From positions 544,206 through 608,205 of the forward strand of contig DASWIS010000008.1 in NCBI GenBank assembly GCA_036397555.1: a stretch of 64,000 nt of DNA, given 5' to 3'. Each line of letters opens with the position of its first letter. The first letter of the stretch is position 1. Shown one piece after another: positions 4,372 through 59,893 of this stretch. This DNA is from Candidatus Zixiibacteriota bacterium. Lineage in GTDB: Bacteria > Zixibacteria > MSB-5A5 > WJJR01. Under the pieces are notes generated by a model. That model was given only the letters and a program-made list of their open reading frames with translations, searched no databases and was not told where the DNA came from. The position numbers and the translations under genes were made by a program.

Positions 4372-5619
4372 ATGGCGATGCGGCCGGTCAAAGAACAATT
4401 GGCGATCATTCGTTCCGGGACCGTCGAGGTCATCCCGGAGGATGAGCTCGAACGCAAACTCAGACGCGCCGTCTCCGAGAATCGACCGCTGCGGGTCAAA
4501 CAAGGATTCGATCCGACCGCACCCGACATCCACCTGGGGCACACGGTCGGTCTGCGCAAGCTCAAACAGTTCCAGGACCTGGGACATCAGATCGTTCTGA
4601 TCGTCGGCGATTACACCGGCATGGTCGGTGATCCGTCGGGCTGTTCCTCGACACGCCCGCAACTGACCCAAGCCGATGTGCTCCGCAATGCGGAAACGTA
4701 CCAGAATCAATTCTTCAAGATTCTCGACCGCGGCAAGACCGAGGTGCGTCGCAATGGCGAGTGGTTCGCGAAGATGTCGTTCGTCGAGATCATGCACCTG
4801 GCATCGCGCGTGACCGTCGCGCGCATCCTCGAACGCGACGATTTCGAAAAACGCTACCGCGGCGGTGATCCGGTGTCGATCCATGAACTGTTCTATCCGC
4901 TTATGCAGGCCTACGATTCGGTCGCGATCAAAGCCGACATCGAAATCGGCGGCAATGAACAAAAGTTCAATCTGCTCACCGGACGGCAGATTCAGCAGGA
5001 TTATGGCGTCGAGCCGCAAGTGATCCTCACGTTGCCGATCCTGATCGGCACCGATGGGCAACTGCGCATGAGCAAGTCGACCGGCAACTATATCGGTGTC
5101 GATGAGCCGCCCGACACCATCTTCGGCAAAACAATGTCGATTCCCGATGATCTCATCGTGTCTTACTTCGAATTGGTCACCGACTCCACGTTGGAGCGGA
5201 TCGACGAGGTGAAACAATCGCTGCGGTCGGGCGCCAATCCCCGCGACCTGAAGCTCGAGTTGGCCCGAACGCTTGTGCGGATGTATCACGGCGAGGCGGC
5301 GGCGAAGAGCGCCCGTGACGGGTTCATCCGACAGTTTTCCGAGCGGCAGGTGCCGCACGAGATCGAGCAGACTGCCATCATCTCGTCGGAGACGCACCTG
5401 CCGCTGTCGCGGATCATGGTCGAGGCGGGCGCCGCCAAAAGCACCAGCGAATCCAAACGCAAAATCGAGCAGGGCGGAGTCCGCATCATGTATGATGACG
5501 GAGACAGCGCCGATTTCACCTCATTCACCGACCCGCAGGGCACGATCGGCACCGACCGGCCGTTTGTCCTGAACGTGGGCAAACGCTTCTTTAAGCGGAT
5601 CGCATTCTCCAGGGAATAA
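4372..5619 (+). CDS. tyrS: tyrosyl-tRNA synthetase
   Basis: HIGH-type motif (PDIHLGH), KMSKS-type motif (RMSKSTGN) and a C-terminal S4-like domain. The internal ATG at 4372 gives ~415 aa. Confidence 0.9.
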   Translation: MAMRPVKEQLAIIRSGTVEVIPEDELERKLRRAVSENRPLRVKQGFDPTAPDIHLGHTVGLRKLKQFQDLGHQIVLIVGDYTGMVGDPSGCSSTRPQLTQADVLRNAETYQNQFFKILDRGKTEVRRNGEWFAKMSFVEIMHLASRVTVARILERDDFEKRYRGGDPVSIHELFYPLMQAYDSVAIKADIEIGGNEQKFNLLTGRQIQQDYGVEPQVILTLPILIGTDGQLRMSKSTGNYIGVDEPPDTIFGKTMSIPDDLIVSYFELVTDSTLERIDEVKQSLRSGANPRDLKLELARTLVRMYHGEAAAKSARDGFIRQFSERQVPHEIEQTAIISSETHLPLSRIMVEAGAAKSTSESKRKIEQGGVRIMYDDGDSADFTSFTDPQGTIGTDRPFVLNVGKRFFKRIAFSRE

Positions 5620-6945: not shown

Positions 6946-7032
6946 CCGCAGCCGTACCCAAAGCGAGATCATGAGACCGAGTCCATGTCGCACACAGCAC
7001 CATCGTCACTGGATGAAGAGGCGACCGACAAT

Positions 7033-8037
7033 ATGATGAATCCCCTGCAACACATCCGCGAGCGGGCGCGACGGATCAAAGCGCGCATCGTCCTGCCCGA
7101 GGGGACCGATCCCCGCGTGATCATGGCCGCGCGATCGCTCGCGTCCGAAGAAATCGCGCAGGTCACGTTGCTGGGCGATGAACGCGCTGTTCGTCAAGCC
7201 GCCGAAGCCGAACACTTGTCTCTGCGCAAAGTGACCATCATCGATCCGGCGTTGTCGCCGCAATTGGCCGAGTATGCCGCCGAACTGCGCAAGCTGCGTC
7301 CCGACCAATTCCCGACCGACGACACGGCGCGCACACAAGCGGCCGACATCCTCTGGTATGGAGCGCTCATGGTGCGCACCGGCGCGGCCGATGGCATGGT
7401 CGGCGGTGCGGCGCACACCACCAGCGATCTGTTGCGCGCGGCGCTGCGGGTGGTCGGGCTGGCGCCGGGGATCAAGACCGTGTCGGGATACTTCTTCATG
7501 GTCTTCCCGCGATTCAACGACGAACTCAACAAGGTCTTCATCTTCGCCGACTCGGGTGTGGTGCCCGATCCCGATGCCGCGCAGCTTGCCGACATTGCGA
7601 TTTCCTCGGCGGGTGCGTATCGATTGCTCACCGGCGATGAACCGCGTGTGGCGCTGCTCTCGTTTTCGACCAAAGGCTCAGCGAAACATCCGATGCTCGA
7701 CAAGATCACCGAGGCGCTCTCGCTGATCCGTCGGCGCGATTCGGCGCTAATCTGCGATGGCGAGTTGCAGCTTGATGCGGCGCTTGTCCCCTCGGTGGCG
7801 CGCAGCAAAGACCCCGACGGCATGATTGCGGGCAAGGCCAATGTCCTGATCTTCCCCGACTTGAACTCCGGCAACATCGCCTACAAACTCGCCGAACGGA
7901 TGGCGGGCGCCAAGGCGGTCGGCCCGCTCTTGTCGGGTCTGGCCAAACCGGTCAACGATCTCTCGCGCGGCTGCTCCGCCGAAGACATCGTCAACGCCGT
8001 CGCCGTCGCCGCGGTGACCTCCCGGCCCGGGCGATAG
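7033..8037 (+). CDS. pta: phosphate acetyltransferase
   Basis: Full-length similarity to Pta (RIVLPEG..., SGN..AYK, C-terminal VNDLSRGCSAEDIVNAV). The start is taken at MMNPLQHIRERA. Confidence 0.85.
   Translation: MMNPLQHIRERARRIKARIVLPEGTDPRVIMAARSLASEEIAQVTLLGDERAVRQAAEAEHLSLRKVTIIDPALSPQLAEYAAELRKLRPDQFPTDDTARTQAADILWYGALMVRTGAADGMVGGAAHTTSDLLRAALRVVGLAPGIKTVSGYFFMVFPRFNDELNKVFIFADSGVVPDPDAAQLADIAISSAGAYRLLTGDEPRVALLSFSTKGSAKHPMLDKITEALSLIRRRDSALICDGELQLDAALVPSVARSKDPDGMIAGKANVLIFPDLNSGNIAYKLAERMAGAKAVGPLLSGLAKPVNDLSRGCSAEDIVNAVAVAAVTSRPGR
7949..8014 (+). repeat. direct repeat copy 1 (pta 3' end), matches 11583-11648
   Basis: 66 bp identical except for one mismatch to the downstream copy. 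Confidence 0.8.
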
Positions 8038-8112
8038 CTGTCCTTGGGCCTCCGCATGCGTCGCTGAGGCAGAACTGTCAGAATGTGGGACCAGTCTTCC
8101 CCGAATAGAAAA

Positions 8113-8128
8113 GTTAGGTTGACCTAAC
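8113..8128 (+). promoter_or_regulatory. palindromic operator-like site GTTAGGT-tg-ACCTAAC overlapping a -35 box
   Basis: Perfect 7+7 inverted repeat. Resembles the DtxR/IdeR iron-box half-sites TTAGGTTAG/CTAACCTAA. Confidence 0.5.
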
Positions 8129-8147
8129 AATCGTCTGGCGCTATGAT
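8119..8147 (+). promoter_or_regulatory. σ70-like promoter (-35 TTGACC, 17 bp spacer, -10 TATGAT)
   Basis: TTGACC at 8119-8124 and TATGAT at 8142-8147. Sits ~70 bp upstream of the OMP gene start. Confidence 0.5.
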
Positions 8148-8175
8148 CGCCGCGGGTTTTTCCGAAGGAACTAAC

Positions 8176-8189
8176 TTAGGCGCACCTAA
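8176..8189 (+). promoter_or_regulatory. second palindromic site TTAGG-cgca-CCTAA in the 5'UTR
   Basis: Shares the TTAGG/CCTAA half-sites with 8113-8128. Lies ~30 bp upstream of ATG 8218. Confidence 0.45.
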
Positions 8190-8217
8190 CTTTCAATCCG
8201 CCAAGGGGACATATCAA

Positions 8218-9399
8218 ATGACGAGATCAGCAATCAGGATCGTTCTCCTGAGTTTTGGGCTGACGACAATGACCGCCGTACCGGTTGGCGCACAGTTGGC
8301 TCCGGGCAGCCGACCATCAGTTCCCGGAGGAATCTATGACAAACCCTACCTGCAGAATTACAGCGGTGGCATCGCGCTGGGAGGGTACATGGATCATGAA
8401 CTCTTCGTGCAGCCCGACCATTCGACCTTCGATCAGCACCGTTTCATTCCCTTCATCTTTGCCTCCCCGACCGAATACATTCATGTCACCGCGGAGATCG
8501 AATTCGAACACGGCGGGCTGGTGAAAGGAAGCGGCACTAGTGACGGCGAGATTAAGCTGGAGTTCGCCGTCATGGACTGGGTGATCAGCGATGCATTCGG
8601 ATTTCGCGGCGGGGTGATCCTGACCCCGCTGGGAAAGCTAAACCTCACCCACGACAGCCCCTTGCAGGACCTCACCAACCGTCCTCCGGTGTCGAGCCAA
8701 CTGATCCCGACTACGCTTTCGGAATCCGGGATGGGTGTGTTCGGCGTGTTGTACCCGGGCGATTGGGTCGTCGGCTACGAACTGTACGTCGTCAACGGTT
8801 TCAACGAGAAGATCATCACCGGCGCCGGCGATCTGCGTGTGCGCGGCGGGCGCGGCTCGCAGAAGAGCGACAACAACGAAAACAAAGCCGTCACGGGCCG
8901 TCTCTCGGCTTCGCCGATGCTGGGTCTGGATGTCGGCGTGTCCGCGCACAGCGGCACCTATGACCCCGCCGGTGAGCATCGACTGACCATCGCTGCGGCC
9001 GACTGGGACTGGCAACGCGGTCCGTTCCAGTTCCTCGGTGAGGCGGCCTTGGTGAATGCCGAGATCCCGTCCGCCGAACTGCGCCTCGCGCAGACCGGTT
9101 CAGCCGACATTACCCAACGCGGTCTGTATGCTCAGGCGAACTATCACTTCGGTTTCGGCACAATCCGGCGATACCCCGAAAGCGTCTTCACCAGTATCGT
9201 GCGCTGGGATTATGTCGACTTCAATGCCGACGCCTCCGGTGACGACACACAGCAGGCGACCGTGGGCTTGAACTTCCGTCCGGTCGAACGCAGCGTGGTC
9301 AAAGCCGATTACCGCTGGGGCTGGTCTCGCGGATCCGGGACCGAATCCTGGTCGAGGCCGGACAAGCTCTTCAGCTTCTCCGTCGCCACCTACTTTTGA
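8218..9399 (+). CDS. outer-membrane β-barrel (porin-like) protein, hypothetical
   Basis: Signal peptide MTRSAIRIVLLSFGLTTMTAVPVGAQ. β-strand-rich alternating pattern. C-terminal aromatic residue (..ATYF). Confidence 0.55.
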   Translation: MTRSAIRIVLLSFGLTTMTAVPVGAQLAPGSRPSVPGGIYDKPYLQNYSGGIALGGYMDHELFVQPDHSTFDQHRFIPFIFASPTEYIHVTAEIEFEHGGLVKGSGTSDGEIKLEFAVMDWVISDAFGFRGGVILTPLGKLNLTHDSPLQDLTNRPPVSSQLIPTTLSESGMGVFGVLYPGDWVVGYELYVVNGFNEKIITGAGDLRVRGGRGSQKSDNNENKAVTGRLSASPMLGLDVGVSAHSGTYDPAGEHRLTIAAADWDWQRGPFQFLGEAALVNAEIPSAELRLAQTGSADITQRGLYAQANYHFGFGTIRRYPESVFTSIVRWDYVDFNADASGDDTQQATVGLNFRPVERSVVKADYRWGWSRGSGTESWSRPDKLFSFSVATYF

Positions 9400-9440
9400 T
9401 CCTGAACCGACTGACCGTGAACCGGATCGATCCGATTCCG

Positions 9441-10481
9441 ATGACACGACGGCGCTTTGTCGCGCTCGGTGCGATGTCGGCCCTCGGCGCGCTGATCCCG
9501 GCGCCTCTTCGGCGGCTTGTCGAGATTCCCGGCGACAGGTACTCAGACCTTCTGTGGTCTATGGGGGGCTGGAACCTGATCGAGGTGCGCGCACACACTT
9601 CGGACGGGGCCGCCGCCGCGATCTCCGTGGCCAAGGACGCCATCCGGCAAATCGATCGGACCTTCTCGGTCTTCGACCGCCGTTCCAAACTCTCTCGGAT
9701 CAATCACGACCGTGGATGTCACGTAGCCATCGACGATCAATCCATTCTCAACGGCATCGCGGCGGCGCTGCGCTGGGCGTCGGCGTCGGCAGGTGCCTTC
9801 GACCCCACAGTCGAACCGCTCATGAGGCGCTGGGGATTTCGCGAAGGCATCGACCGCGCCGTCGACGGCAATCAATCATCGTCATGCGATCATCGGGCAA
9901 TCGAACTGGATCTGGCGCGGGTATGCCTGCGGCGCGAGACACCCCAATTGCAACTGGATTCGGGCGGCTGGGCGAAGGGATGGGCGGCCGGATTGGCCGC
10001 ACAGGCCGCGCTCCGCCACGGTGCGGTCGAGGCGCTGGTCAACTGCGGCGGCGATATCGCGCGTGCCGTTGCGCACGGCAACCCGGAGTGGACCTGCGGC
10101 ATACGCAACCCGGCGGGCACGCGGCACGAAATTGTAGCCCGGGTCCGCCATATATTCCCGGCCGCGGCGACATCGGGTGACTATGAAAACTACCGGCTCG
10201 ACGACCACAACAGGCGCATCGGCCATCTGATGGATCCCCGATCACGCCGACCGGCAATCACCGATTTGTTCTCGGCGACCGTCTTCGCTCATGATGCCCT
10301 CGCGGCCGATGCGATGGCGTCGGCGCTGTTTGTGATGGGCTCCGCCCGGGCCACGCGCTGGCTTTCGGCGCATCCAGATTTCGCGGCCGTTCTCATCACC
10401 GATGCCGATTCGGGCACTGGCCTCCGCATTCAGGCGATCGGTCCGATCGATTTGACCGCCGTGCCCTTGCCGCGCGGGTAA
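9441..10481 (+). CDS. apbE: FAD:protein FMN transferase (ApbE/Ftp family), TAT-secreted
   Basis: ApbE motifs FDPTVEPLMRRWGF, LDSGGWAKGWA, ATSGDYENY, HLMDPRS. Twin-arginine signal MTRRRFVALGAM. Confidence 0.85.
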   Translation: MTRRRFVALGAMSALGALIPAPLRRLVEIPGDRYSDLLWSMGGWNLIEVRAHTSDGAAAAISVAKDAIRQIDRTFSVFDRRSKLSRINHDRGCHVAIDDQSILNGIAAALRWASASAGAFDPTVEPLMRRWGFREGIDRAVDGNQSSSCDHRAIELDLARVCLRRETPQLQLDSGGWAKGWAAGLAAQAALRHGAVEALVNCGGDIARAVAHGNPEWTCGIRNPAGTRHEIVARVRHIFPAAATSGDYENYRLDDHNRRIGHLMDPRSRRPAITDLFSATVFAHDALAADAMASALFVMGSARATRWLSAHPDFAAVLITDADSGTGLRIQAIGPIDLTAVPLPRG

Positions 10482-10487
10482 AGACGC

Positions 10488-11081
10488 ATGAGAACCCCGG
10501 TGCCCATCCTCGTGATTTTGCTCGTTCCGATGTCCTGCCCGCGCGGATACGCGCAGGAGCCGACAGAAGACGAAATCGGTACTGTGCAGGTTCTCACTTC
10601 GGAGGAGCATGCCCTGGCGGCGATCTTTCCCGATGCCGATTCCGCTCATCCCGGCGTTATTGCCCTCGATTCCATCCGCCGTGAGGCGTTACGCGCGTTG
10701 CTGGGCCGACATGTGCGTGACTCCGCGTTCGTCTATTTTGATGTCTTTGCGCAGGGACGACGTGCAGGAACAGCCGTCATCGCCGAGGAACGCGGCAAAT
10801 ACCGCCCCATCACCTTCATGGCCGGCGTTGATACCGCGCTGCGAATCGTTGATGCCCGCGTGCTGGTCTACCGTGAGAGCCGGGGGGGAGAGGTGCAGCG
10901 CACGCGCTTTCTGAAACAGTATCGGGGCAAGTCCCTCAACGACCCGATCCGCATCAACCGCGACATCATCAACATCACCGGCGCGACCATCTCGGTCAAT
11001 GCGCTCAATGCCGGAATCCGCAAAGTCCTGGCGGTCGCGGCCCTCCTGCATCCGCCGGCAACGGGGGAGGGGGGGCCATGA
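10488..11081 (+). CDS. FMN-binding domain protein with flavinylation motif (TGATIS)
   Basis: Signal peptide. The C-terminal FMN_bind-like region DIINITGATISVNAL matches the [S/T]GA[T/S] ApbE target motif. Confidence 0.75.
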   Translation: MRTPVPILVILLVPMSCPRGYAQEPTEDEIGTVQVLTSEEHALAAIFPDADSAHPGVIALDSIRREALRALLGRHVRDSAFVYFDVFAQGRRAGTAVIAEERGKYRPITFMAGVDTALRIVDARVLVYRESRGGEVQRTRFLKQYRGKSLNDPIRINRDIINITGATISVNALNAGIRKVLAVAALLHPPATGEGGP

Positions 11082-11554
11082 CCCTGCCGCGGCTGCGCAC
11101 CTGGTCGCGTCCGTTACGCCTGCTGACACTGGCTTTCGTGGTCGTCGTGGCCTTGGGGTATGCGGTCGGGCTGGCGTTCATTGTCCACAACACCGCGGTT
11201 TCCCCATCAGGGATCGTCGATCACTACCACGGCAACGAAGACCGCATGAAATTCGGCAAATCGACGGGGGAGATGCTCGAAATCGTCCACAATCACCTGC
11301 TCGGCATGGGCATGCTGTTCTTCGCGGTCGGCTTACTCTACATCGCCGCCGACACCCCGCCCCCATGGAAAACCCTGATCCCCGTCGAAACGCTCCTGAC
11401 CCTCCTGTCGACCTTCGGCGGCCTGTGGCTGATCCGCGAGGGCCTGGCCTGGGCCAACTGGCTGGTCTTCCCCTCTTCCTTCCTGATGCTGGCCGGGTAT
11501 ATTGCCATGTGCACGACGGTGATCTGGAACTGCCTGACGCCGTCGTCGAATTAG
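11078..11554 (+). CDS. 4-TM membrane protein with conserved His (HYHG, HNH), hypothetical
   Basis: ATGA-coupled to the FMN-binding gene. Four hydrophobic helices. Confidence 0.5.
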   Translation: MTLPRLRTWSRPLRLLTLAFVVVVALGYAVGLAFIVHNTAVSPSGIVDHYHGNEDRMKFGKSTGEMLEIVHNHLLGMGMLFFAVGLLYIAADTPPPWKTLIPVETLLTLLSTFGGLWLIREGLAWANWLVFPSSFLMLAGYIAMCTTVIWNCLTPSSN

Positions 11555-11582
11555 CTTGGCCCATGTCGTACCGACTTGCCCG

Positions 11583-11670
11583 GTCAACGATCTCTCACGC
11601 GGCTGCTCCGCCGAAGACATCGTCAACGCCGTCGCCGTCGCGGCGGTGGCGTCGCGACCGGGGGGGGTAG
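11583..11670 (+). pseudogene. remnant duplicate of the pta 3' end (direct repeat copy 2)
   Basis: Encodes PVNDLSRGCSAEDIVNAVAVAAVASRPGG with no in-frame stop. An 8-G homopolymer sits where the pta stop would be. Confidence 0.7.
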
Positions 11671-11685
11671 CCGATTCGTGGATTT

Positions 11686-11702
11686 GTAGGGTGGGCTCTG
11701 CC
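11686..11702 (+). terminator. GC hairpin GGTGGGC-tct-GCCCACC followed by an A/T-rich tail
   Basis: Perfect 7 bp stem followed by atttacttaatt. Placed where the original pta terminator would be. Confidence 0.4.
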
Positions 11703-11719
11703 CACCATTTACTTAATTC

Positions 11720-12382
11720 GTGCGAGATATGGCAAGCCCTGACGAGAGTGCTTGTCCCGAGCGAAGTGGAGCGATCAGGGCCACGAACCCGCTGACGAAG
11801 GACTGCAGCGCAGGTGCAATGAAGAACACTGAACTCGTAGAGAAGACCGCCGAGCTGACTCCGCACAATCGAATACAATCGAACCGGCCGTGGTGGAAAG
11901 ACGCGAAGTTCTGGATCACTACTGTCGTGTCTTTGTTGGCAGTAGCCGTAGCGTTCGATGCTCGTGACAAGGCGCTTACTGTCAACGTAAGGCTGAACAA
12001 TCTCGTTGGTGAAGAGGGTAGGACATTGCTTGTCACAGAACTTGAGCAAACTCGACGACTCCTAATAAAGACCGAAGGGGCCATCTCAGATAGCATCGAA
12101 GCTGGTCGTAATCGTGCGGGTGCGAAAGGATTTGCGGGTGGCTCAGTTCATACGTATGAGATCAAGCGAGCATTGGAGCCTCTAAGAGAATTAGTGGAAG
12201 AAGAGTGGTTCGGATTGGATCGTCGTATAGCCAAACTCTTGGCCCAGATGGGACACAGCGCAGACTCGTTGAATCAAGTTGAATCACTGGTGGACTTGAA
12301 TCAAAGCTACGCCGAACTCAGGATACAAAAGGATTCTGTCTTGTGCGTGATTCAAGTAGCCATCGAACAGTCTGGGCAGTGA
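11720..12382 (+). CDS. hypothetical single-TM protein (lower-GC gene); start may be ATG 11819
   Basis: TM helix WWKDAKFWITTVVSLLAVAVAF. The C-terminal region is helical. GC is visibly lower than in neighbouring genes. Confidence 0.4.
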   Translation: MRDMASPDESACPERSGAIRATNPLTKDCSAGAMKNTELVEKTAELTPHNRIQSNRPWWKDAKFWITTVVSLLAVAVAFDARDKALTVNVRLNNLVGEEGRTLLVTELEQTRRLLIKTEGAISDSIEAGRNRAGAKGFAGGSVHTYEIKRALEPLRELVEEEWFGLDRRIAKLLAQMGHSADSLNQVESLVDLNQSYAELRIQKDSVLCVIQVAIEQSGQ

Positions 12383-12402
12383 ATATGTGGCACTGACCTT
12401 GG

Positions 12403-13491
12403 TCAGTGGATTTGGGCTCTCCCCGCCAACTGCCCGCACGCCGCGTCAATGTCGACGCCGAAGGACTTGCGGATGTTGACTGCCGGGCAGCGCGGGTAGA
12501 GGTATTCGCGGAAGGCAAGGACGCGCTCTTCGGGCGGGCGGCGATACGGACTCTCGGGGTTGGGGTGGAAACGGATCAGGTTGATCTTGCAGGGGATGCC
12601 GTGGATGAACGTGACAAGCTGTTGGGCGTGCTCGATGGAGTCGTTGATCCCGTCCATCAGCACATACTCGAATGTGACACGACCCTTGGTGCTCTCGGCG
12701 ACCGCGATCGCCGCGTCGCGCAGTTGCGCCAATGGATAGCGCCGATTGATCGGCATCAGCTCGGACCGCAGCGGGTCATTGGGCGCGATCAGCGAGATTG
12801 CCATCTTGGCGCGCACTTTCTCCTGGGCCCATTTGCGCATCGCCGGGACCAGCCCGACAGTCGAGACCGTGACCCGATTGTGCGAAATCGCCAGCCCTTC
12901 ATCGTGCGTCAGTATGTCCAGCGCCGCCTTGACGGTCTTGAAGTTCTGCAATGGCTCGCCCATGCCCATAAAGACGACATTCGTAACGCATTCATCATCA
13001 GGGAGCAGCCGCGCTGTCGCCATCACCTGCCCGACAATCTCACCGACCGTCAGATTGCGCCGCAGCCCCATCCGCGCGGTCGCGCAGAAGACACATCCCA
13101 GCGCACACCCCGACTGCGATGAGACACAGACCGTGCGACGCCTGCGGCCATCGCGCATCAGTACCGATTCCCATAGATCCTTGCCGCTACGGAACAGCAG
13201 CTTGTCGGTGCCGTCGGGGGAATGCTGGATCGACTCGGGCTGGGGAATGTCGATCGTGAAGCGCTCGGCCAGCAGCGAGCGCAGTTCCAGGCGCAGATCG
13301 GTCATCGATTCGAAATCAGTCGCACCGCGCCGGTAGATCCAGCGGTAGAGCTGCCGCCCGCGATACGGCGCCTCGCCCAGCGACTGCATTGCTTCTTCAA
13401 GCTGCCCCAGCGACTGCCCCAATAGGTCAGTCCGAGTCGAGGGCTCGGCCGCATGGGAATGCGAGGCGATTGTTAAGGCGTTATTGTGCAT
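12403..13491 (-). CDS. rlmN: 23S rRNA/tRNA adenine-C2 methyltransferase RlmN (radical SAM)
   Basis: CALGCVFCAT radical-SAM cluster motif. RlmN N-terminal region. Start taken at internal Met (cat at 13489-13491). Confidence 0.85.
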   Translation of the reverse strand: MHNNALTIASHSHAAEPSTRTDLLGQSLGQLEEAMQSLGEAPYRGRQLYRWIYRRGATDFESMTDLRLELRSLLAERFTIDIPQPESIQHSPDGTDKLLFRSGKDLWESVLMRDGRRRRTVCVSSQSGCALGCVFCATARMGLRRNLTVGEIVGQVMATARLLPDDECVTNVVFMGMGEPLQNFKTVKAALDILTHDEGLAISHNRVTVSTVGLVPAMRKWAQEKVRAKMAISLIAPNDPLRSELMPINRRYPLAQLRDAAIAVAESTKGRVTFEYVLMDGINDSIEHAQQLVTFIHGIPCKINLIRFHPNPESPYRRPPEERVLAFREYLYPRCPAVNIRKSFGVDIDAACGQLAGRAQIH

Positions 13492-35160: not shown

Positions 35161-37707
35161 TCACAGGACCGCGCGCAGTCCCGCGAAAAAGTTCCGCTTC
35201 GCCGCCGGGATAAAGAGGTAGTCGCCGTCCCAGTATCCGCCGGCTTCATATTCGGCATCGAACACGTTGTTGACATGGATATACGCGCTCACGCCGGGCC
35301 AGCCGACCAGTTTCTGCAGCTTCGCTTCACCGCGGAGGTTGAAGACTGTGCGCGCGTCGATGAGCGATGCGTCCTCGTTGGAGTTGTCGATGAAAATGGG
35401 TCCGACGTGATAGATGTGCGCCGACAAGCCGATGTACGGGTGTTCGTAGTTGGCACGCACATTCGCCAGGCGATTCGGAAAGAGCGCAAGCGTCTTCCCC
35501 GACAGATCGACAACCGAACCCTCGCCGGTGTCGTAGTCGTACAGATACAGATCGAATTCATCGAAACTGTTGTCCGATAGCGACAGGTTCCCGGAAACGG
35601 AGAGACCCTGCCCCAAATCGGCATTGGCCGACAGCTCGATCCCTTGATGGGTCGACCGCGGCGCGTTGGCCCGAATCGGCACCCCGTCATCGTTGATCTG
35701 TCCGTTGAACACGATCTCATCGTGGAAGCGCATGTGGAACAAATTGATCTCCGCCCGCCAGTGCGGCTGATTCAGTGAGGCGCCCAACTCGAAGTCCAGC
35801 AACCGCTCCGGCTTCATGATCGGGTCGTGTCCTTCGATCGTTCCGTCTGCCAGCGTTGCCGTATCGTCGAAGAAGTCTGCAACGTTGGCGTAGTAGTCCT
35901 GCACGTCGAAGATTTCGTCGTTGGTCGGTTCCTGCTCATTATAACTCACGCTGCCGAACATGCTCGCCCGGGCGTGTGGCCGAGCGGTGATTCCCAGGCG
36001 CGGTGAGATGAAATGATAGTCGGTCGTGTGCGTCACTCGCTGTCCCCAAATGTTCGGGAATCCGTCGTCGTAGCGCTCGTAACGTTTGAATGCGTATGAC
36101 ACAGCGCCCGTCAATGTCACTTCCGGAAACGGCGTCAGGATCTCCTGTCCGAACAACGACGCCACCGTCTGGGCGCCTTTGTACGAATAGTATCGCTGGT
36201 CCGGGACAAAGTCCTCCGGGGCGGGATTAGCCGATTTGACTTCGCCCCAGTGATCGGCGGTCAATCGCCTCAGCTCGGCGCCGAAGCTCAGTGTTCCATA
36301 GTCGTGATGGTGTGTGGCGCGCGGCACAATCCCCCAAAAGTCATTCTCAACCCAGCGTCGCCGTACCAGTTGTTCGGCGAGATCGATCAGAACGGTATCG
36401 ATCTTGATCTCGCCGTTGTCGTCATTCACCTCGATGTCCATAAACGGCGTCAACTGGTACTCGCCGAAGTCGCGGTCGAACCGCCGCTGATCGTAGAAAC
36501 CTTCGCCCTTGATGTAGTAGAGCGTGTTTTCCAGCGTCCACTGGTCACTGGGACGAAACTCGGTGAGCCATTGGTACTGCGGCTGATTGAAGTTGTCGGT
36601 TTCGCCGCCCCACAGAATGGGATTGAAACGCCGATCGCCTTCGGCAACACCGCTCGGCGAGATGGTCCCGCCGTCGATCTCCCACACAAATGACGTGTCC
36701 CCGTCAATGAATCGGCGCGGAATCCCCTGATAAGCCAGATGCGTCTGTTCGGGACCGCCGAAAACATACAGCCGATTGGTCCATTGCGCGTCATGTCGCG
36801 CCGCACCCAGGAAGTATGACCACAGATCGGTCCAGGCGTTGTCACGGTAACCTTCGGAGACGATCCGCGAAAACCGGCCGTAGACCGCATGCTGGCCGTC
36901 GATCAGTCCCGAATTCAGCGCGACGCTGAATTTGCGGGTATCATACGATCCGAAACCGGAATTGACCACAATGCGCCGCGGCCCCGTCAATTGGTCGGTC
37001 ACCAGATTGACCGTACCCCCGATGGAGTTTGATCCATACAGCGTCGTGCCGACGCCGCGCTGAAGCTGCACGTCCTCGACGCTCTCCAGCAAGTCGGGCA
37101 GGTCGATCCAGTAAACCTCGTGCGATTCGGGATCGTTGAGAGGAACACCGTTGATGAGCACCGAAACCCGCCGCTGCGCAAATCCGCGCACGAACAGGTA
37201 TGAATACCCGATTCCGTTGCCGTTGTCCGAGTACGCATACACGCCCGGCGATTCGGTCAACACCATGGGCACGTCCTGTGCGTGGTAGGTCCGCCGGATT
37301 TCTTCCTGCGTGATGTTGTCGAACGCGACCGGCGATTGCCCGCGCACAGCCCGATGCGACGTGACCACGACCTCTTCGCCGGACAGCACGGTCGGCTCGA
37401 TTTCGATCCTGAGGACATCGGGTCCCGGGACAACCGACAACGTCCTGGTGGCGTACCCGACATGACGGATTTCAATCCCAAATGCCCCCTCTGCAACATC
37501 CTTGAACAGGAACTCTCCGTTGCGATCCGCCGCCAACGATTGTTGCGCATCGACGATAGTGACCGTGGCCGCTGGGACGGGCCGGCCGCTGGCCGCGTCG
37601 ATAATGACACCGCGCAGTTGTGCCGCGTCGGCGATTGATGCGAGTATCAGCGGAGCGAGGCAGCCCGTAAAAGCGATTCTGACTCGTTGGCCGAACTGGG
37701 CAAACAT
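35161..37707 (-). CDS. TonB-dependent receptor with N-terminal carboxypeptidase-regulatory-like domain
   Basis: Plug and barrel motifs. Strong SD AAAGGAG upstream of ATG at 37707. Confidence 0.8.
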   Translation of the reverse strand: MFAQFGQRVRIAFTGCLAPLILASIADAAQLRGVIIDAASGRPVPAATVTIVDAQQSLAADRNGEFLFKDVAEGAFGIEIRHVGYATRTLSVVPGPDVLRIEIEPTVLSGEEVVVTSHRAVRGQSPVAFDNITQEEIRRTYHAQDVPMVLTESPGVYAYSDNGNGIGYSYLFVRGFAQRRVSVLINGVPLNDPESHEVYWIDLPDLLESVEDVQLQRGVGTTLYGSNSIGGTVNLVTDQLTGPRRIVVNSGFGSYDTRKFSVALNSGLIDGQHAVYGRFSRIVSEGYRDNAWTDLWSYFLGAARHDAQWTNRLYVFGGPEQTHLAYQGIPRRFIDGDTSFVWEIDGGTISPSGVAEGDRRFNPILWGGETDNFNQPQYQWLTEFRPSDQWTLENTLYYIKGEGFYDQRRFDRDFGEYQLTPFMDIEVNDDNGEIKIDTVLIDLAEQLVRRRWVENDFWGIVPRATHHHDYGTLSFGAELRRLTADHWGEVKSANPAPEDFVPDQRYYSYKGAQTVASLFGQEILTPFPEVTLTGAVSYAFKRYERYDDGFPNIWGQRVTHTTDYHFISPRLGITARPHARASMFGSVSYNEQEPTNDEIFDVQDYYANVADFFDDTATLADGTIEGHDPIMKPERLLDFELGASLNQPHWRAEINLFHMRFHDEIVFNGQINDDGVPIRANAPRSTHQGIELSANADLGQGLSVSGNLSLSDNSFDEFDLYLYDYDTGEGSVVDLSGKTLALFPNRLANVRANYEHPYIGLSAHIYHVGPIFIDNSNEDASLIDARTVFNLRGEAKLQKLVGWPGVSAYIHVNNVFDAEYEAGGYWDGDYLFIPAAKRNFFAGLRAVL

Positions 37708-38002
37708 CACGTACTCCTTTCGGGGCCCGAATAGCAAAACGGCCGTTTCCGGGACGGGAAACGGCGCGGTCTGAAGCGGCACGGCTGTCTGTCCGTACCG
37801 CCGCCTGGTCCGTTCCCTACGCCGGCATTACCCGGATCAGGTTCGAAGGGTGTTGTCTCAGGCCCCTTTGATGGGACCACCCCGCGAACACAGGCAAGTC
37901 CACAATAGAAAACTTCACGAGGCGACGCAAGCCGATTTGGGGTCAACGCTTCCCGCCCGTCACGGTGTCGGGTATATTGTCGTGCCCCACACGGTGATAA
38001 CG

Positions 38003-52313: not shown

Positions 52314-55277
52314 TTGAAATTGAGCATGAAGCCCCTTCCTCACGATGCTTCCGCGTTGCGCGAGACTATGGACGGCGTCGTACGTCTGCTCGACGACGAC
52401 AACGTCACCGCGGCAGTGAACTTGATGGATCGTCTGGAGAGCGAAGCGCCCGTCACCCCCGGGGCCCCGCTCTTCGGCGAATGGTGCATGGTGCGCGCAC
52501 GCCTGGCCCATGCCGAAGGACGGTATACCGATGCCGTCCGGGAGGCGCGTGCGTGCCTCGACATGATCCAATCGACCGGTTCTGACGCGGCAATTGCGGA
52601 CGTTCACCGCCTGTTGGGCGGCGCCTATCTCGGGATGGGTGTCACCAAGAGCGCTCGGATGCACGCGCGCGATGCCATCGCCATTTATCGGCGTATCGGA
52701 GATCAAAATGGTGTGATGCATGCCGCCAATGACCTGGCACGCATTCACTTCGTCAGCAGCGAATACACTCTCGCCATCGACTTCCTCAATGATGCCGTCG
52801 AGATCGCCCGCCAGACGGGCAACCACGAACGTGAAACGGCGTTCATTGGGAATCTCGGTCGGATCTACCTGCTGCAGGGGCAGTGGCAATTGGCGCACGA
52901 GGCCCTGTCGCAAGCGTGTGGCCGAGCGGAGCGGGCCGGGAAAGACAGTTCGACCGCACGCAATCTGCTGTCGTTAGGATACCTTGGGATCCTTCGACAC
53001 GAATTTGAAGCGTCTGCGCTATGCCTGGACCGAGCGTTGCAATACATCGAGCGCGCGGGATTGGTGCGGGAACGATCGATCCACTTTGAATACACCGGCT
53101 GGTGGCATTTCGAGCAACGGCACTGGATTCAGGCCAAGGAGGACTTCCGCTCGGCGCTGCAAATCGGCCAGAAACTGAGTTCCGAAAACGATTTGGTCTC
53201 ACAATCGCTCCGAGGGCTGGCCGAGTGCGAAGCCGCCCTGGGAGATTGGCCCGAGGCGCAACGATTGGCGGAATCGGGCTTATCCGTGGCCCTTGAGATC
53301 GGTGAGCGTGTGGAAGTCGGCTGCCTGTACCGGGTCATCGCCGAGGCGATGGCGCGCCGGGGCGACGTCAACGGTGCGCAGACCGCCCTGTCACGGGCGC
53401 AAGAAAACCTCGACGTGGCTGCCGATCCGTATGAGTCGGCACGTTTTCAGGTTGTCGCGGCGCGAGTCCTGACGCTGCTGCCGCAATCCGAGCCAACCGC
53501 GATCGTCGATTCGCTGCGCGAGGCACTCAACACGTTCGAGCGATTGGGTGCCTCCGCGCAGGCGACCGAGGTCTGCATATTGCTCGTTGAAGCATTGCGA
53601 AGTGCGGGCCGGTTGGACGAGGCCATTCAGTACGCACGCGCGGTCGAGCGACAAAAGGCGGGGGAATCCTCCGGTTCTGATGACGTCGCTGACCACTGTG
53701 CCTTGCAGTCGGCCCTCTCGAAGTCATGTGTCACCCATGCGCTCTCCAGTGCCAACGAGTTCCGACTCGGTGGCGTGCCGTGGGCGGTCGCCGCACTGGA
53801 CGGTGAGTCGCGCGACGATCTCCAGCAGGCAGTCGCGTTCTTCCGTACCCGGATCAACGCCTCCCGTGCGGTCCTTCTGGAGGTCACTGTTGATGGCGCA
53901 CGGACCGGAAGTGTTGTCACTGTGTCCGGGGCGAATGAAGACTTTGCACATCATTTGGGCGAGTTCGTGGCCAGCCCCTATCAGCGCGAACTGCCGACCG
54001 ATGCGCCGAGATTCTACTGGTCTCATGGAACCACTCCTGATCTGACCGCTCATTTTTCCGAGCATGATGAACCCGCCCCCGTCGCCGTCATCTCTGTCCC
54101 GGTGGAACTGGGGCCGGGCGCGTCGGGGCTGCTTTATGCGGATGTCCTCGGTCAAGACGCCGCGGGCCAGCCGATCCGGTTTGGACCGCGCGATCTGGAC
54201 TTCGCGGTCGCATTTGCCGAAATCGTCGCGTGGCGATCCACACGATTGCGCTCTGAAGGGCTCCATCGCGATGTGCGACGCTTGCGGGACCAACTGGCAA
54301 ACTCCAGCGATTTCCCCAGCATCATCACCCAGAATGAAGCCCTGCGCGACACGCTATCGCGTGTGCGCATGGTCGTCGACACGGATGTCTCGATCCTGCT
54401 GTTGGGAGAGACGGGAACCGGTAAGGACCTGCTCGCTCGCGCCATACATTTCTCCAGCGATCGCCGCGACCACCGCTTTGTCTCCGTCAATTGCGCCGCC
54501 CTGCCCGAGTCGCTGTTGGAAAGCGAGTTGTTTGGTGTCCGGCGCGGGGCCTTCACGGGCGCCGATCGTGACAAAGCCGGGCTGTTCGAGGAGGCGGACG
54601 GGGGTACGTTTTTCTTAGACGAGATCGGGGAAATGCCGGTTTCGCTGCAGGCGAAGCTCCTGCGACTGCTGGAGAACAAAGAGTTGACGCGCTTGGGTGA
54701 CACGCGCCCGCGACAAGTCGATGTGCGCGTCATTTCGGCGACCAATAGCGATCTGTCCGGCGATACCGCGCGTGGCACATTCCGGCGAGACCTGTTTTAC
54801 CGCCTCGCTCCGCTGACATTTACGCTGCCGCCGCTGCGGGAACGCCGTGAAGACATCCCGCTGCTTCTCGACCACATCTTAACGCGCGTATGTGACGAGG
54901 CAGGACGCAAAGTGCGGCTGCTTCCGGAAACTGTCCGGGTCCTGTGCAATTATGACTGGCCGGGCAATGTCCGCGAACTGGAGAATGAAATCCGCAAGCT
55001 GATCCTGCTCGCCGGAGCCGAAGGGACCATCGGGCCGGAACGTCTCGCCCAGAAGCTTCTGGAGACGTGCGATACACTGGGCCAGCCCGGCACGGCCCCC
55101 GCGCTGCCCGAACGCTTCTCGCTGTACGACCACATGGCGCAATTAGAACGACGGTTCATCGCGCACGCGCTGGCCGAGTCGGACGGGATCAAAAAACACG
55201 CCGCCGCGCGGCTCGGAATGCCCGAATCGACCCTGCGCCTGAAGATGAAGCAGTACGATCTGGACGTCGGCGCATAG
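52314..55277 (+). CDS. σ54-dependent transcriptional activator with N-terminal TPR repeats (987 aa)
   Basis: AAA+ σ54-interaction domain (GETGTGKD, GAFTGA, GTFFLDEIGEMP). C-terminal Fis-type HTH. Confidence 0.85.
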   Translation: MKLSMKPLPHDASALRETMDGVVRLLDDDNVTAAVNLMDRLESEAPVTPGAPLFGEWCMVRARLAHAEGRYTDAVREARACLDMIQSTGSDAAIADVHRLLGGAYLGMGVTKSARMHARDAIAIYRRIGDQNGVMHAANDLARIHFVSSEYTLAIDFLNDAVEIARQTGNHERETAFIGNLGRIYLLQGQWQLAHEALSQACGRAERAGKDSSTARNLLSLGYLGILRHEFEASALCLDRALQYIERAGLVRERSIHFEYTGWWHFEQRHWIQAKEDFRSALQIGQKLSSENDLVSQSLRGLAECEAALGDWPEAQRLAESGLSVALEIGERVEVGCLYRVIAEAMARRGDVNGAQTALSRAQENLDVAADPYESARFQVVAARVLTLLPQSEPTAIVDSLREALNTFERLGASAQATEVCILLVEALRSAGRLDEAIQYARAVERQKAGESSGSDDVADHCALQSALSKSCVTHALSSANEFRLGGVPWAVAALDGESRDDLQQAVAFFRTRINASRAVLLEVTVDGARTGSVVTVSGANEDFAHHLGEFVASPYQRELPTDAPRFYWSHGTTPDLTAHFSEHDEPAPVAVISVPVELGPGASGLLYADVLGQDAAGQPIRFGPRDLDFAVAFAEIVAWRSTRLRSEGLHRDVRRLRDQLANSSDFPSIITQNEALRDTLSRVRMVVDTDVSILLLGETGTGKDLLARAIHFSSDRRDHRFVSVNCAALPESLLESELFGVRRGAFTGADRDKAGLFEEADGGTFFLDEIGEMPVSLQAKLLRLLENKELTRLGDTRPRQVDVRVISATNSDLSGDTARGTFRRDLFYRLAPLTFTLPPLRERREDIPLLLDHILTRVCDEAGRKVRLLPETVRVLCNYDWPGNVRELENEIRKLILLAGAEGTIGPERLAQKLLETCDTLGQPGTAPALPERFSLYDHMAQLERRFIAHALAESDGIKKHAAARLGMPESTLRLKMKQYDLDVGA

Positions 55278-59400: not shown

Positions 59401-59863
59401 GGACTGGGATGAACGTCACTCCCTGACGCTCATACTCGACATCCGCGTGCCGGCGAATGACCATCCCAAACTCTTTGGCCGTACCATCCCCAGCGATTGG
59501 GGCCTGAACATATTCTGGCAATACGGATCTGGCTTCCCCTACACACCGAGCACGTCTCATCCGGGGGTCGAGATTGTCGGACAGCTTGAGCCCGACAAGA
59601 ATTCACGACGCTATCCCGCGCACAATAACATCGACGTTCGCTTCAACAAGAATTTTGCCATCGGGCCCATGCACTACGCGTTTGAGGTCTGGGTCTACAA
59701 CGTGCTCGACGAACGGAACATCCGGGAAGTCTACACCGGCACCGGCCGACCCGAAAGCGGGGTCAACCAGAGCCGTGTCATCTATCCGTCCGATGGTCAG
59801 ACCGACCCGCGACTTTGGGAGGCCGGGCGCCAGATTCGTATCGGATTGGGAATGGATTTCTAA
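56495..59863 (+). CDS. TonB-dependent-receptor/SusC-like outer-membrane protein with inserted array of Ca-binding (dockerin/EF-hand-like) repeats
   Basis: Signal peptide, CarbopepD_reg-like domain and TonB plug. Eight DxNGNGxxD-type loops (aa ~450-670). The barrel ends ..GLGMDF. SD GGGAGGA upstream. Confidence 0.8.
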   Translation: MMRPSEIGNRIRRWTPLVLAGIWIASASQGFAANGKIAGQVLDNKSKEPLIQATVQVVGTTLGAVTDIDGRFQILAVPVGEHSVRASIMGYQPVVVTGILVKPDQTENVSFDLDESAVELEAVIVRAEIDLIQMDQATTKRDVSAEKIKTLPVTNVGDIIAMTPGVTVRNDRFHIRGGRSSEVLYNVDGVSMSDPLGGRGPTQALNLSGTEIENVSIIKGAWSPEYGGTSGIISVSTKDGGSDTKGHVQYFTDDFGTKNLNTYSRNFQRFEFNLGGPEPLFTKLVLPALGLGGPSDKLTYFTSLNFERSDTYTPINRFTTDATRADFREFKFLAWVLRDRQTNFGDALFKMSYRLSPDIRLTGQYKQTYERNMLWRWSYRYVPNNIPWEEDKSEFYSLRWTHNLSKTTYYEVQLSRQQRTFWQKPGNPNVAGGTLNPDDFLFDHQSDTYEDRNGNGAWDPPETWTDVYPDGEYTFGDVWIDRDGDGNYVPGIDTLIFDFNGNGVVDFNVGESFVDRNGNGRYDEGDALTRDGNGNGIYDPGNEEDLFDIEGSPNDIPEPYLDGDVSLGEPFTDVNRNGVYDDSLSGLPFGEPFVDLSHDSKYQGPNDDWVVGVPFRDLNGNGDFDRGSSTPSGAWSSDDASYDFGEPFNDLNGDGIRNAADGFYDRGWDGSVVWHYRRPRDTRMKVDLVSQMRREHEVKIGGEYAAYDLTFEELQQPYVDLTGKDLENSLGQPYPGRGTIRDFYNQTPKTGALYIVDKMEYGQMIAHVGFRYEYFIQANDASAAEEAAIGEDIPYADYRDRFAPRIAFAYPISDKAKVFFNYGHFYQLPPLFQMYARSTFTNSASGVIGNLNLEFVKTIKYEFGVQYMLSPEYLLSVQGFYSDDFGRVAASEIRGYGGLDARNFYENSEYSRARGIEFELEKKYGNYVSGSFTYDLSWAFGKSSAEALDYFANFYAGSNDRFVIQEFPLDWDERHSLTLILDIRVPANDHPKLFGRTIPSDWGLNIFWQYGSGFPYTPSTSHPGVEIVGQLEPDKNSRRYPAHNNIDVRFNKNFAIGPMHYAFEVWVYNVLDERNIREVYTGTGRPESGVNQSRVIYPSDGQTDPRLWEAGRQIRIGLGMDF

Positions 59864-59893
59864 GCGCATCGGGGTGGCCGTATTTCTCAGGAT

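What the first reader, a model, noticed from the sequence alone, without database searches (positions are those of the whole stretch)
8100..8220. Promoter overlapped by two TTAGG-N-CCTAA palindromes (DtxR/IdeR iron-box-like operators)
The -35 TTGACC (8119-8124) and -10 TATGAT (8142-8147), 17 bp spacer, sit upstream of the cassette operon. The palindrome GTTAGGTtgACCTAAC (8113-8128) overlaps the -35. A second palindrome, TTAGGcgcaCCTAA (8176-8189), lies in the 5'UTR. The half-sites match the DtxR/IdeR consensus TTAGGTTAGGCTAACCTAA. This suggests metal (Fe/Mn)-responsive repression of the downstream flavinylation operon.
Basis: partly seen in the sequence, partly recalled or inferred. Interest (0 to 1): 0.6.

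Follow-up and report, generated by a model that had tools for sequence, protein, structure and literature searches.

The report
Iron-repressor boxes on iron-uptake promoter
Two perfect 14-bp binding boxes for a DtxR/IdeR-type metal-sensing repressor bracket the promoter of an operon that probably helps the cell acquire iron; this is an ordinary kind of switch, correctly spotted, in an uncultivated bacterial lineage (Zixibacteria-like).

Summary
TTAGGttgaCCTAA (8114-8127) and TTAGGcgcaCCTAA (8176-8189) are the only exact matches in 64 kb, against none in 100 shuffles. The first overlaps the -35 of the only sigma-70-like promoter nearby.

Both are exact matches to TTAGGNNNNCCTAA. This is the one-dimer consensus proposed for IdeR/DtxR repressors (PMC8464063).

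Four relatives whose porin is 64-66% identical have a DtxR-family gene directly upstream of the same operon (porin, ApbE, FMN_bind, Aq_1264_TM). They carry the same boxes in front of the operon and inside the dtxR promoter. The half-sites are conserved and the spacers vary.

The window itself has no dtxR gene. However, an orthologue (P0121/P0058) lies on other contigs of the same two metagenomes that hold this locus. One of those contigs has the same tetranucleotide signature as the window (r = 0.98).

The regulator family keeps DtxR's Fe-type primary ligands (Met, Cys, Glu, His). Porin homologues elsewhere sit next to feoAB in about 40% of loci.

These are DtxR-family operators, the metal is most likely Fe(II), and they repress an iron-acquisition cassette. 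It is a new member of a known kind, with some variant features: paired one-dimer boxes, and a regulator without an SH3 domain but with a Cys/His tail.

The parts
8113..8128 (.). Operator box 1, GTTAGGttgaCCTAAC. It is a 16-bp perfect palindrome whose 14-bp core lies at 8114-8127, and it overlaps the -35 hexamer.
   Evidence: It is an exact match to the IdeR/DtxR one-dimer consensus and is conserved upstream of orthologous operons.
8176..8189 (.). Operator box 2, TTAGGcgcaCCTAA. It lies about +23 to +36 from the predicted TSS and 28 bp upstream of the start codon.
   Evidence: In strain variants the spacer changes (cgca to caca) while the half-sites stay intact. A box sits in an equivalent position, close to the ATG, in L097.
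8119..8147 (+). Predicted sigma-70-type promoter: TTGACC, a 17-bp spacer, then TATGAT.
   Evidence: It is the only hit in 6 kb, with 10 of 12 matches. This is a prediction only; no TSS data exist.
8204..8210 (+). Ribosome-binding site AAGGGGA.
   Evidence: Read directly from the sequence.
8218..9399 (+). Porin-like outer-membrane protein of 393 aa with a signal peptide. It is the first gene of the regulated operon.
   Evidence: The match to Pfam Porin_O_P is weak. 87 homologous loci were recovered, and 37 of them have feoB adjacent.
9396..10481 (+). ApbE flavin transferase. The true start may be Met at 9441, which opens a twin-arginine-like MTRRRF leader.
   Evidence: Pfam ApbE, E = 8.6e-55; translation.
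10488..11081 (+). FMN_bind-domain protein with a signal peptide and the flavinylation motif ...NITGATIS...
   Evidence: Pfam FMN_bind; sequence.
11078..11554 (+). Small polytopic membrane protein of the Aq_1264_TM family. It is translationally coupled to the preceding gene (ATGA overlap).
   Evidence: It is 57% and 53% identical to the L098 and L097 genes, which the collection annotates as PF27139 Aq_1264_TM.
11690..11706 (+). Terminator-like hairpin followed by a T-rich tail, marking the end of the operon.

Best explanation
The two TTAGG-N4-CCTAA palindromes are operators for a DtxR-family metalloregulator of 166-169 aa. This regulator has two domains and no SH3 domain; its representatives in this population are P0121 and P0058.

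Proposed mechanism:
- When the regulator is loaded with metal, most likely Fe(II), one dimer binds each 14-bp box.
- Box 1 occludes the -35 of the promoter.
- Box 2, in the leader, adds a second block or stabilises binding.
- Together they shut off the porin-ApbE-FMN_bind-Aq_1264_TM operon.
- When iron is scarce the repressor comes off and the operon is expressed. The operon probably encodes an outer-membrane channel plus a flavinylated periplasmic electron-transfer module that supplies Fe(II) to Feo-type uptake.

Shown here:
- the sequence match to the consensus;
- conservation of the boxes in relatives;
- linkage of the boxes to dtxR-like genes and their promoters;
- presence of the regulator in the same metagenomic population.

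Inferred:
- actual binding of the regulator to these boxes;
- the sign of regulation;
- the identity of the metal;
- the biochemical role of the operon.
For: Match to the consensus:
- Both boxes match exactly the 14-bp IdeR/DtxR one-dimer consensus, and IdeR was shown by EMSA to bind such a 'half' site as a single dimer (PMC8464063).
- These are the only two exact matches in 64 kb, against zero in shuffles.

Conservation in relatives:
- In L009, L010, L097 and L098 the porin is 64-66% identical to the window's.
- In each of them a gene with Fe_dep_repress and Fe_dep_repr_C domains sits directly upstream of the same operon.
- The boxes lie between that gene and the porin, and also between -35 and -10 of the dtxR-like promoter (TTGACt..TTAGGnnnnCCTAATAAT), which implies autoregulation.
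- Across 16 sites (11 of them exact matches, 5 with one mismatch) the half-sites are near-invariant while the spacer varies. The symmetrised consensus is wGTTAGGyGCrCCTAACw.
- In L088 the same one-plus-two arrangement of boxes precedes a putative Fe(III)-type ABC transporter operon.

Regulator in the window's own population:
- P0121 is on Ga0299906_10000033, in the same metagenome as the 99%-identical copy of this locus on Ga0299906_10000001.
- P0058 is on Ga0326597_10000739, in the same metagenome as the 100%-identical copy of the porin gene with both boxes on Ga0326597_10000084.
- The tetranucleotide correlation between the window and the P0121 contig is 0.981. Within-window controls give 0.979-0.983, and unrelated loci give 0.89 or less.
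- P0121 is 64-67% identical to the operon-linked regulators, the same divergence as seen for the porin.

Metal identity:
- The equivalents of DtxR M10, C102, E105 and H106 are invariant in 40 family members.
- The structural model has the DtxR/MntR fold, with pLDDT 88 and TM 0.85-0.89 relative to the target.

Iron context of the operon:
- feoB is adjacent in 37 of 87 porin-homologue loci and feoA in 33 of 87, and a Fur gene is adjacent in 2.
Against: - No binding or expression data exist.
- The dtxR-like gene is not in the window. Its assignment to the same genome rests on co-occurrence in two metagenomes plus nucleotide composition, not on a closed genome.
- P0121's own promoter has no box, unlike its relatives.
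- The distance between the two boxes is not conserved (62, 66 and 78 bp), so cooperative looping is not supported.
- The residue equivalent to DtxR Gln43 is Gly or Glu, and the DtxR ancillary-site ligands H79, E83 and H98 are replaced by Phe, Lys and Ala in P0121. The protein is therefore not a canonical IdeR.
- The promoter is a consensus prediction only.
Confidence: 0.8

Rival explanations
1. The operators and the DtxR-family regulator are as described, but the effector is Mn(II) (MntR-like), so the operon responds to manganese rather than iron.
For: - JGI names the family 'DtxR family Mn-dependent transcriptional regulator'.
- The protein has two domains like MntR, and the top structural matches include MntR and the Mn-dependent DR2539.
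- L097 has a second DtxR paralogue next to CorA.
- From my memory, E. coli MntR sites have similar geometry; this is a lead only.
Against: - The selectivity positions are Met11 and Cys103, as in DtxR/IdeR. MntR and DR2539 have Asp and Glu there (alignments; invariant across the family).
- The regulated genes and their relatives are iron-linked: feoAB neighbours, a putative Fe(III)-type ABC transporter, and Fur neighbours.
- The JGI name is a generic automatic label.
Confidence: 0.12
2. The palindromes are bound by an unrelated dimeric regulator that uses 5-N4-5 sites, for example a Crp/Fnr-type or other winged-helix protein. On this view their resemblance to the IdeR consensus is coincidental.
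For: - The 5-N4-5 geometry is shared with Crp/Fnr-family sites (general knowledge).
- No regulator gene is adjacent in the window.
- More distant feoAB-porin intergenic regions use GTTTGG-N4-CCAAAC, and the factor that binds these is unidentified.
Against: - The match to the IdeR one-dimer consensus is exact at all 10 specified bases, twice.
- In five independent lineages the box sits inside the promoter of a dtxR-like gene and right after it.
- The FNR consensus fits the region poorly, with at least 4 mismatches, and not at the boxes.
- Box 1 overlaps the -35 rather than lying at -41.5 or -61.5, where activators sit.
Confidence: 0.05
3. The palindromes act at the RNA or DNA-structure level, as leader hairpins or as a terminator for the upstream pta gene, rather than as protein operators.
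For: - Box 1 was flagged as a weak terminator-like hairpin on the minus strand.
- Box 2 lies in the predicted leader and can form a 5-bp hairpin.
Against: - The leader folds no better than shuffled sequence: z = +1.1, and 177 of 200 shuffles fold at least as well.
- The half-site sequence itself is conserved, not merely the pairing.
- Boxes in the dtxR promoters lie between -35 and -10, so they are not transcribed.
- No minus-strand gene is present for box 1 to terminate.
- There are no Rfam hits.
Confidence: 0.03

Closest known systems
IdeR/DtxR iron boxes of Actinobacteria (C. diphtheriae tox operator, M. tuberculosis and S. erythraea IdeR regulons)
   Same: - The recognition pentamers are the same (TTAGG / CCTAA).
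- The one-dimer geometry TTAGGNNNNCCTAA is the same.
- The operator overlaps the core promoter of iron-acquisition genes.
- The cognate protein has the Fe_dep_repress and Fe_dep_repr_C domains and the M/C/E/H primary metal site.
   Different: - Canonical boxes are 19 bp and bind two overlapping dimers. Here each box is a stand-alone 14-bp site (5 mismatches to the 19-mer), and two boxes lie 62 bp apart.
- The regulator lacks the SH3-like third domain and the ancillary-site ligands. It carries a C-terminal Cys/His motif instead.
- The host is a Zixibacteria-like lineage, not an actinobacterium.
S. erythraea IdeR 'half site' at the nuo promoter (C23S1; PMC8464063)
   Same: A single dimer binds a TTAGGNNNNCCTAA-type site. 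The authors proposed this 14-mer as the redefined family consensus.
   Different: There the half site is an exception within a regulon of 19-bp boxes, and its function is unknown. Here the 14-bp box seems to be the standard operator of the whole clade and occurs in pairs or triplets.
MntR / DR2539 two-domain DtxR-family Mn sensors
   Same: They share the two-domain architecture and the fold (TM 0.85-0.89 relative to the target), and they repress metal-uptake genes.
   Different: In the Mn sensors the metal-selectivity residues are Asp and Glu, whereas here they are Met and Cys. Their operators and regulons (mntH, mntABC) also differ.
Flavinylation-associated iron-assimilation clusters (Meheust et al. 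2021, PMC8238504)
   Same: They combine ApbE with an extracytosolic FMN-binding protein encoded together with iron-uptake functions.
   Different: That paper describes the PepSY-like, P19/FTR1, and VIT1-linked DsbD and NQR/RNF-like cluster types. The cassette here, a porin with FMN_bind and Aq_1264_TM linked to feoAB, did not come up in the passages I read (a term search, not the whole paper).

Membership tests
DtxR/IdeR-type operator (iron box) | Matches the one-dimer consensus TTAGGNNNNCCTAA | tested here: met
   Two exact matches at 8114-8127 and 8176-8189. The consensus is taken from PMC8464063.
DtxR/IdeR-type operator (iron box) | Matches the canonical 19-bp two-dimer consensus TTAGGTTAGSCTAACCTAA | tested here: not met
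   The best 19-mers have 5 mismatches, all at positions belonging to the second dimer. The boxes are therefore one-dimer sites.
DtxR/IdeR-type operator (iron box) | A cognate DtxR-family regulator is encoded by the same organism | tested here: inconclusive
   - None is in the window.
- P0121 and P0058 occur in the same two metagenomes as this locus.
- One of their contigs has a matching composition (r = 0.981).
- No closed genome or bin was available, so linkage is strongly suggested but not proven.
DtxR/IdeR-type operator (iron box) | Located at the promoters of metal-homeostasis genes and conserved in relatives | tested here: met
   - Box 1 overlaps the -35.
- The same boxes lie upstream of the orthologous operons, a putative Fe(III)-type ABC transporter operon and dtxR genes.
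- TTWGGN4CCWAA hits are about 50-fold enriched upstream of porin homologues.
DtxR/IdeR-type operator (iron box) | Metal-dependent binding by the regulator | not testable with these tools
   This needs EMSA or footprinting with purified protein and Fe2+, Co2+ or Mn2+.
DtxR protein family (regulator P0121/P0058 and the L009 and L010 proteins) | N-terminal winged-helix domain (PF01325) plus a metal-binding dimerisation domain (PF02742), with the DtxR fold | tested here: met
   - Both Pfam domains score above their cut-offs.
- PDB sequence hits to DtxR, IdeR and MntR have E-values of 1e-8 to 1e-15.
- The AlphaFold model (pLDDT 88) matches MntR and DtxR structures.
Fe-sensing DtxR/IdeR subgroup | Primary-site ligands Met10, Cys102, Glu105 and His106 | tested here: met
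   M11, C103, E106 and H107 align to these ligands and are invariant in 40 homologues.
Fe-sensing DtxR/IdeR subgroup | Ancillary site (His79, Glu83, His98) and a C-terminal SH3-like domain | tested here: not met
   - The aligned residues are Phe, Lys and Ala.
- The protein ends at 166-169 aa with helices and a Cys/His motif; there is no SH3 or FeoA domain.
MntR-type Mn sensors | Asp8 and Glu99 at the binuclear Mn site | tested here: not met
   The positions are Met and Cys. DR2539 (8pvt) shows Asp and Glu in the same alignment.
Fur box | GATAATGATAATCATTATC or the 7-1-7 TGATAATNATTATCA | tested here: not met
   In 8038-8217 the best matches have 10 of 19 and 7 of 14 specified positions mismatched.

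The most novel reading that the evidence does not exclude
A distinct DtxR subfamily is the master iron regulator in Zixibacteria and neighbouring candidate phyla. It lacks the SH3 domain and has only the primary Fe-type site plus a C-terminal Cys3/His motif that may be an extra metal or Fe-S sensor. Instead of the 19-bp two-dimer iron box, it uses stand-alone 14-bp one-dimer boxes arranged in pairs. Its core target would be a previously undescribed Feo-linked module for periplasmic Fe(III) reduction, made of an outer-membrane porin, a flavinylated FMN_bind protein and an Aq_1264_TM membrane protein. The GTTTGG-N4-CCAAAC boxes in feoAB-porin intergenic regions of more distant lineages would be a co-evolved specificity variant of the same system.
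Probability: 0.3. Interest if true: 0.6.

Novelty: new member of a known kind. Interest (0 to 1): 0.4.

Why it matters
The finding gives a concrete and testable regulatory link in an uncultivated lineage: a DtxR-type iron sensor, its operator, and a flavinylation cassette.

It supplies the first natural examples I could find of a clade that appears to use the 14-bp one-dimer IdeR/DtxR box as its standard operator. That box was proposed in 2021 from a single actinobacterial half site.

It also assigns an iron-acquisition role to the porin-FMN_bind-Aq_1264_TM cassette, which has no characterised function. Three things support that role: regulation by an iron-type repressor, frequent linkage to feoAB, and occasional linkage to Fur.

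The regulatory logic itself, a metal-loaded repressor occluding a promoter, is textbook.

Tried and rejected
- **DtxR, MntR and Fur homologues in the window.** The regulator is not local.
- **Genome-contig scan with the porin.** It returned only relatives at about 50% identity, with no exact box. These later turned out to use a TTTGG variant or other leaders.
- **Searching for the source regulator by contig length.** No hit lay on the 965-kb contig. P0049 (113-kb contig) belonged to another sample. The listing of cluster members gave no JGI accessions.
- **RNA explanations.** There is no Rfam family at the locus or in the long leaders of the relatives. The leader fold is unremarkable.
- **Other consensus sites.** Fur box, FNR box and the 19-bp iron box are all poor fits.
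- **Strain polymorphism as a selection test.** There are only 4 SNPs in about 196 bp. None is in a half-site, but the number is too small to mean much.
- **Helical phasing and looping between the boxes.** The spacings of 62, 66 and 78 bp are not conserved.

Full report
**1. The observation**

- GTTAGGTTGACCTAAC lies at 8113-8128.
- TTGACC (8119-8124), a 17-bp spacer and TATGAT (8142-8147) form the only sigma-70-like promoter hit in 7000-13000, with 10 of 12 matches.
- TTAGGCGCACCTAA lies at 8176-8189.

Both palindromes have the geometry TTAGG-N4-CCTAA. They are the only exact matches in the 64-kb window, and none of 100 dinucleotide-preserving shuffles produced a single match. With one mismatch allowed there are still only these two, against 0.17 expected. 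Two-mismatch hits are at chance level.

The region is the 180-bp gap between a phosphate acetyltransferase gene that ends at 8037 and an ORF whose likely start is ATG 8218, preceded by AAGGGGA. With a TSS near 8154, box 1 covers -40 to -27 and box 2 covers +23 to +36.

**2. What lies downstream**

The operon has four genes and a terminator.
- A porin-like outer-membrane protein at 8218-9399, with only a weak Porin_O_P match.
- ApbE at 9396/9441-10481.
- An FMN_bind protein at 10488-11081, carrying the flavinylation motif ...TGAT...
- A small membrane protein at 11078-11554. It is 53-57% identical to genes annotated PF27139 Aq_1264_TM.
- A terminator-like hairpin at 11690-11706.

**3. What the motif is**

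Marcos-Torres et al. (PMC8464063) solved IdeR-DNA structures. Each monomer reads one CCTAA repeat, and one dimer contacts repeats 1 and 3 of the 19-bp box. A designed half site and a natural one bind a single dimer with a KD of about 80-100 nM. The authors explicitly propose redefining the family consensus as the 14-bp TTAGGNNNNCCTAA. Both window boxes match this exactly.

They do not match the 19-bp two-dimer box: the best alignment has 5 mismatches, all at second-dimer positions. Fur and FNR consensus sequences also fit poorly.

**4. Comparative evidence**

A genome-collection scan with the porin found only relatives of about 50% identity and no exact box. A metagenome scan with a porin alignment gave 80 further loci.
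- L008 is a 99%-identical copy of this locus, on a 965-kb contig.
- The closest distinct relatives, L009 and L010 (62-64% identity), each carry a DtxR-family gene directly upstream of the porin.
- Each of these two also carries three exact boxes. One lies between -35 and -10 of the dtxR-like promoter (TTGACTgagTTAGGcgcaCCTAATAAT). Two lie between that gene and the porin.

Looking up homologues of that regulator gave three more contexts.
- L097, a Zixibacteria MAG, and L098 have the same gene order dtxR-porin-ApbE-FMN_bind-Aq_1264_TM and the same boxes.
- L088 has the same one-plus-two arrangement of boxes, each with one mismatch, in front of a putative Fe(III)-type ABC transporter operon.

Across 16 sites the ten half-site positions are near-invariant while the spacer varies. 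The symmetrised consensus is wGTTAGGyGCrCCTAACw. In about 650 kb of porin-homologue loci, exact boxes occur only at these promoters.

**5. Is the regulator in this organism?**

The window has no DtxR, MntR or Fur homologue. The evidence that the regulator belongs to this population comes from other contigs.
- P0121 (169 aa) is encoded on Ga0299906_10000033, in the metagenome that holds L008.
- Its near-identical cluster mate P0058 is on Ga0326597_10000739. That metagenome holds a 100%-identical copy of the window's porin gene with both boxes.
- The P0121 contig has GC 0.601 against 0.599 for the window.
- Its tetranucleotide correlation with the window is 0.981. That equals the within-window controls (0.979-0.983) and is far above unrelated loci (0.89 or less).
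- P0121 is 64-67% identical to the operon-linked regulators, matching the 64-66% divergence of the porin.
- NCBI labels P0058 as Zixibacteria.

I therefore regard the regulator as present in this population, unlinked from the operon. This falls short of proof from a closed genome. Its own promoter lacks a box.

**6. Which metal?**

In the HMMER alignment to DtxR structures, P0121 has Met11, Cys103, Glu106 and His107 at the primary-site positions M10, C102, E105 and H106. These four are invariant across 40 homologues. Mn sensors in the same output (DR2539, MntR) have Asp and Glu where this family has Met and Cys. By established knowledge of the DtxR/MntR family, those are the selectivity-determining positions.

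The ancillary ligands H79, E83 and H98 are Phe, Lys and Ala, and there is no SH3 domain. Most members instead have a C-terminal Cys...HFHEY...CxxC motif. The model is confident (pLDDT 88) and matches MntR, DtxR and IdeR structures.

The target genes also point to iron.
- Of 87 porin-homologue loci, 68 have FMN_bind next door.
- 37 have feoB and 33 have feoA adjacent.
- 2 have a Fur gene adjacent.

**7. Mechanism**

The most likely reading is that an Fe(II)-loaded dimer sits on each box. Box 1 blocks the -35, and box 2 blocks or stabilises from the leader. Iron limitation then derepresses an outer-membrane channel together with a flavinylated periplasmic redox module that feeds ferrous iron uptake.

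Binding, the sign of regulation, the metal and the biochemistry are all inferred.

The distance between the boxes is not conserved (62, 66 and 78 bp), so I do not claim looping. RNA-level explanations are weak.
- The leader folds no better than shuffles.
- There is no Rfam hit.
- The sequence itself is conserved, not just the pairing.
- The boxes in dtxR promoters are not transcribed.

**8. Comparison and novelty**

This is a DtxR/IdeR-type iron box in function and in recognition sequence. It differs from the canonical family in three ways.
- It uses stand-alone one-dimer boxes.
- Its regulator has two domains and no ancillary site.
- The host lineage is different.

The flavinylation-iron link is known in general (PMC8238504), but this cassette type did not appear in the passages I read. 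No paper in the library combines DtxR operators with Zixibacteria beyond gene-catalogue mentions.

**9. Side observation**

In more distant lineages the feoA-porin intergenic regions carry GTTTGG-N4-CCAAAC palindromes. TTWGGN4CCWAA hits are about 50 times denser upstream of porin homologues than elsewhere. L088 has a hybrid box, TTTGGctaaCCTAA. This suggests a specificity variant of the same system, but the factor that binds it was not identified.

Noticed in passing
L005, L025-L050, L066, L073, L077, L082 and others: feoA-porin intergenic regions, e.g. L047 5840-5853 and L046 5900-5913: GTTTGG-N4-CCAAAC palindromes have the same 5-N4-5 geometry as the window boxes, but the third base of the half-site is T instead of A. 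There are 56 TTWGGN4CCWAA hits (one mismatch or fewer) in 31.7 kb upstream of porin homologues, against 22 in 623 kb elsewhere. The binding factor is unknown. L088 has a hybrid box, TTTGGctaaCCTAA.
   Followed up: partly
window 37796-37894 (-): A TPP riboswitch (RF00059, 63 bits) lies directly upstream of a TonB-dependent receptor gene at 35161-37782 (-) that has Plug, beta-barrel and CarboxypepD_reg domains. This is probably a thiamine-regulated outer-membrane transporter.
   Followed up: partly
P0121 residues 127-154 (alignments A2 and A3); contig Ga0299906_10000033 (L089 5001-5510): The DtxR-like family has a conserved C-terminal motif, Cys127...His137-Phe-His139-Glu-Tyr...Cys151-x2-Cys154, in place of the SH3 domain. 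All three Cys are lost together in a subclade (P0086, P0076, P0094, P0105, P0112). This may be an extra metal or Fe-S site.
   Followed up: no
L089 5515-8851 (also L099-L108): In the window's population the dtxR-like gene heads an operon with a Peripla_BP_2 binding protein, an aconitase and a DUF309 protein. Its TTGACA...TACAAT promoter has no box.
   Followed up: partly
L009 about 940-1020 and L010 about 5255-5335: A GC-rich block of about 80-100 nt (…CCCGTCGCTGGACAnCCACCGTACnGAACGGTTCCTCC…GCCGGTGGCGGC…) is conserved between operator 2 and the porin start. It is absent from the window and from L098, and it has no Rfam match.
   Followed up: no
L001 3925-4010 and L007 9875-9960: Where the porin gene follows feoB, the leader after a TTGAC-N17-TATAGT promoter carries a shared element, TTAGTAGTSAAACAAT, instead of a TTAGG box. 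This may be a different regulator or an RNA element.
   Followed up: no
L097 10128-10562: A second, shorter DtxR-family paralogue (144 aa) is followed by a CorA transporter gene immediately after the operon. It may be a separate metal sensor.
   Followed up: no
window 52314-55277 (+) and 56495-62602 (+): A large TPR-containing sigma-54 activator (987 aa) lies upstream of a CarboxypepD_reg/Plug outer-membrane protein (1122 aa) and a 902-aa protein with no Pfam match. None of them has a DtxR-type box.
   Followed up: no
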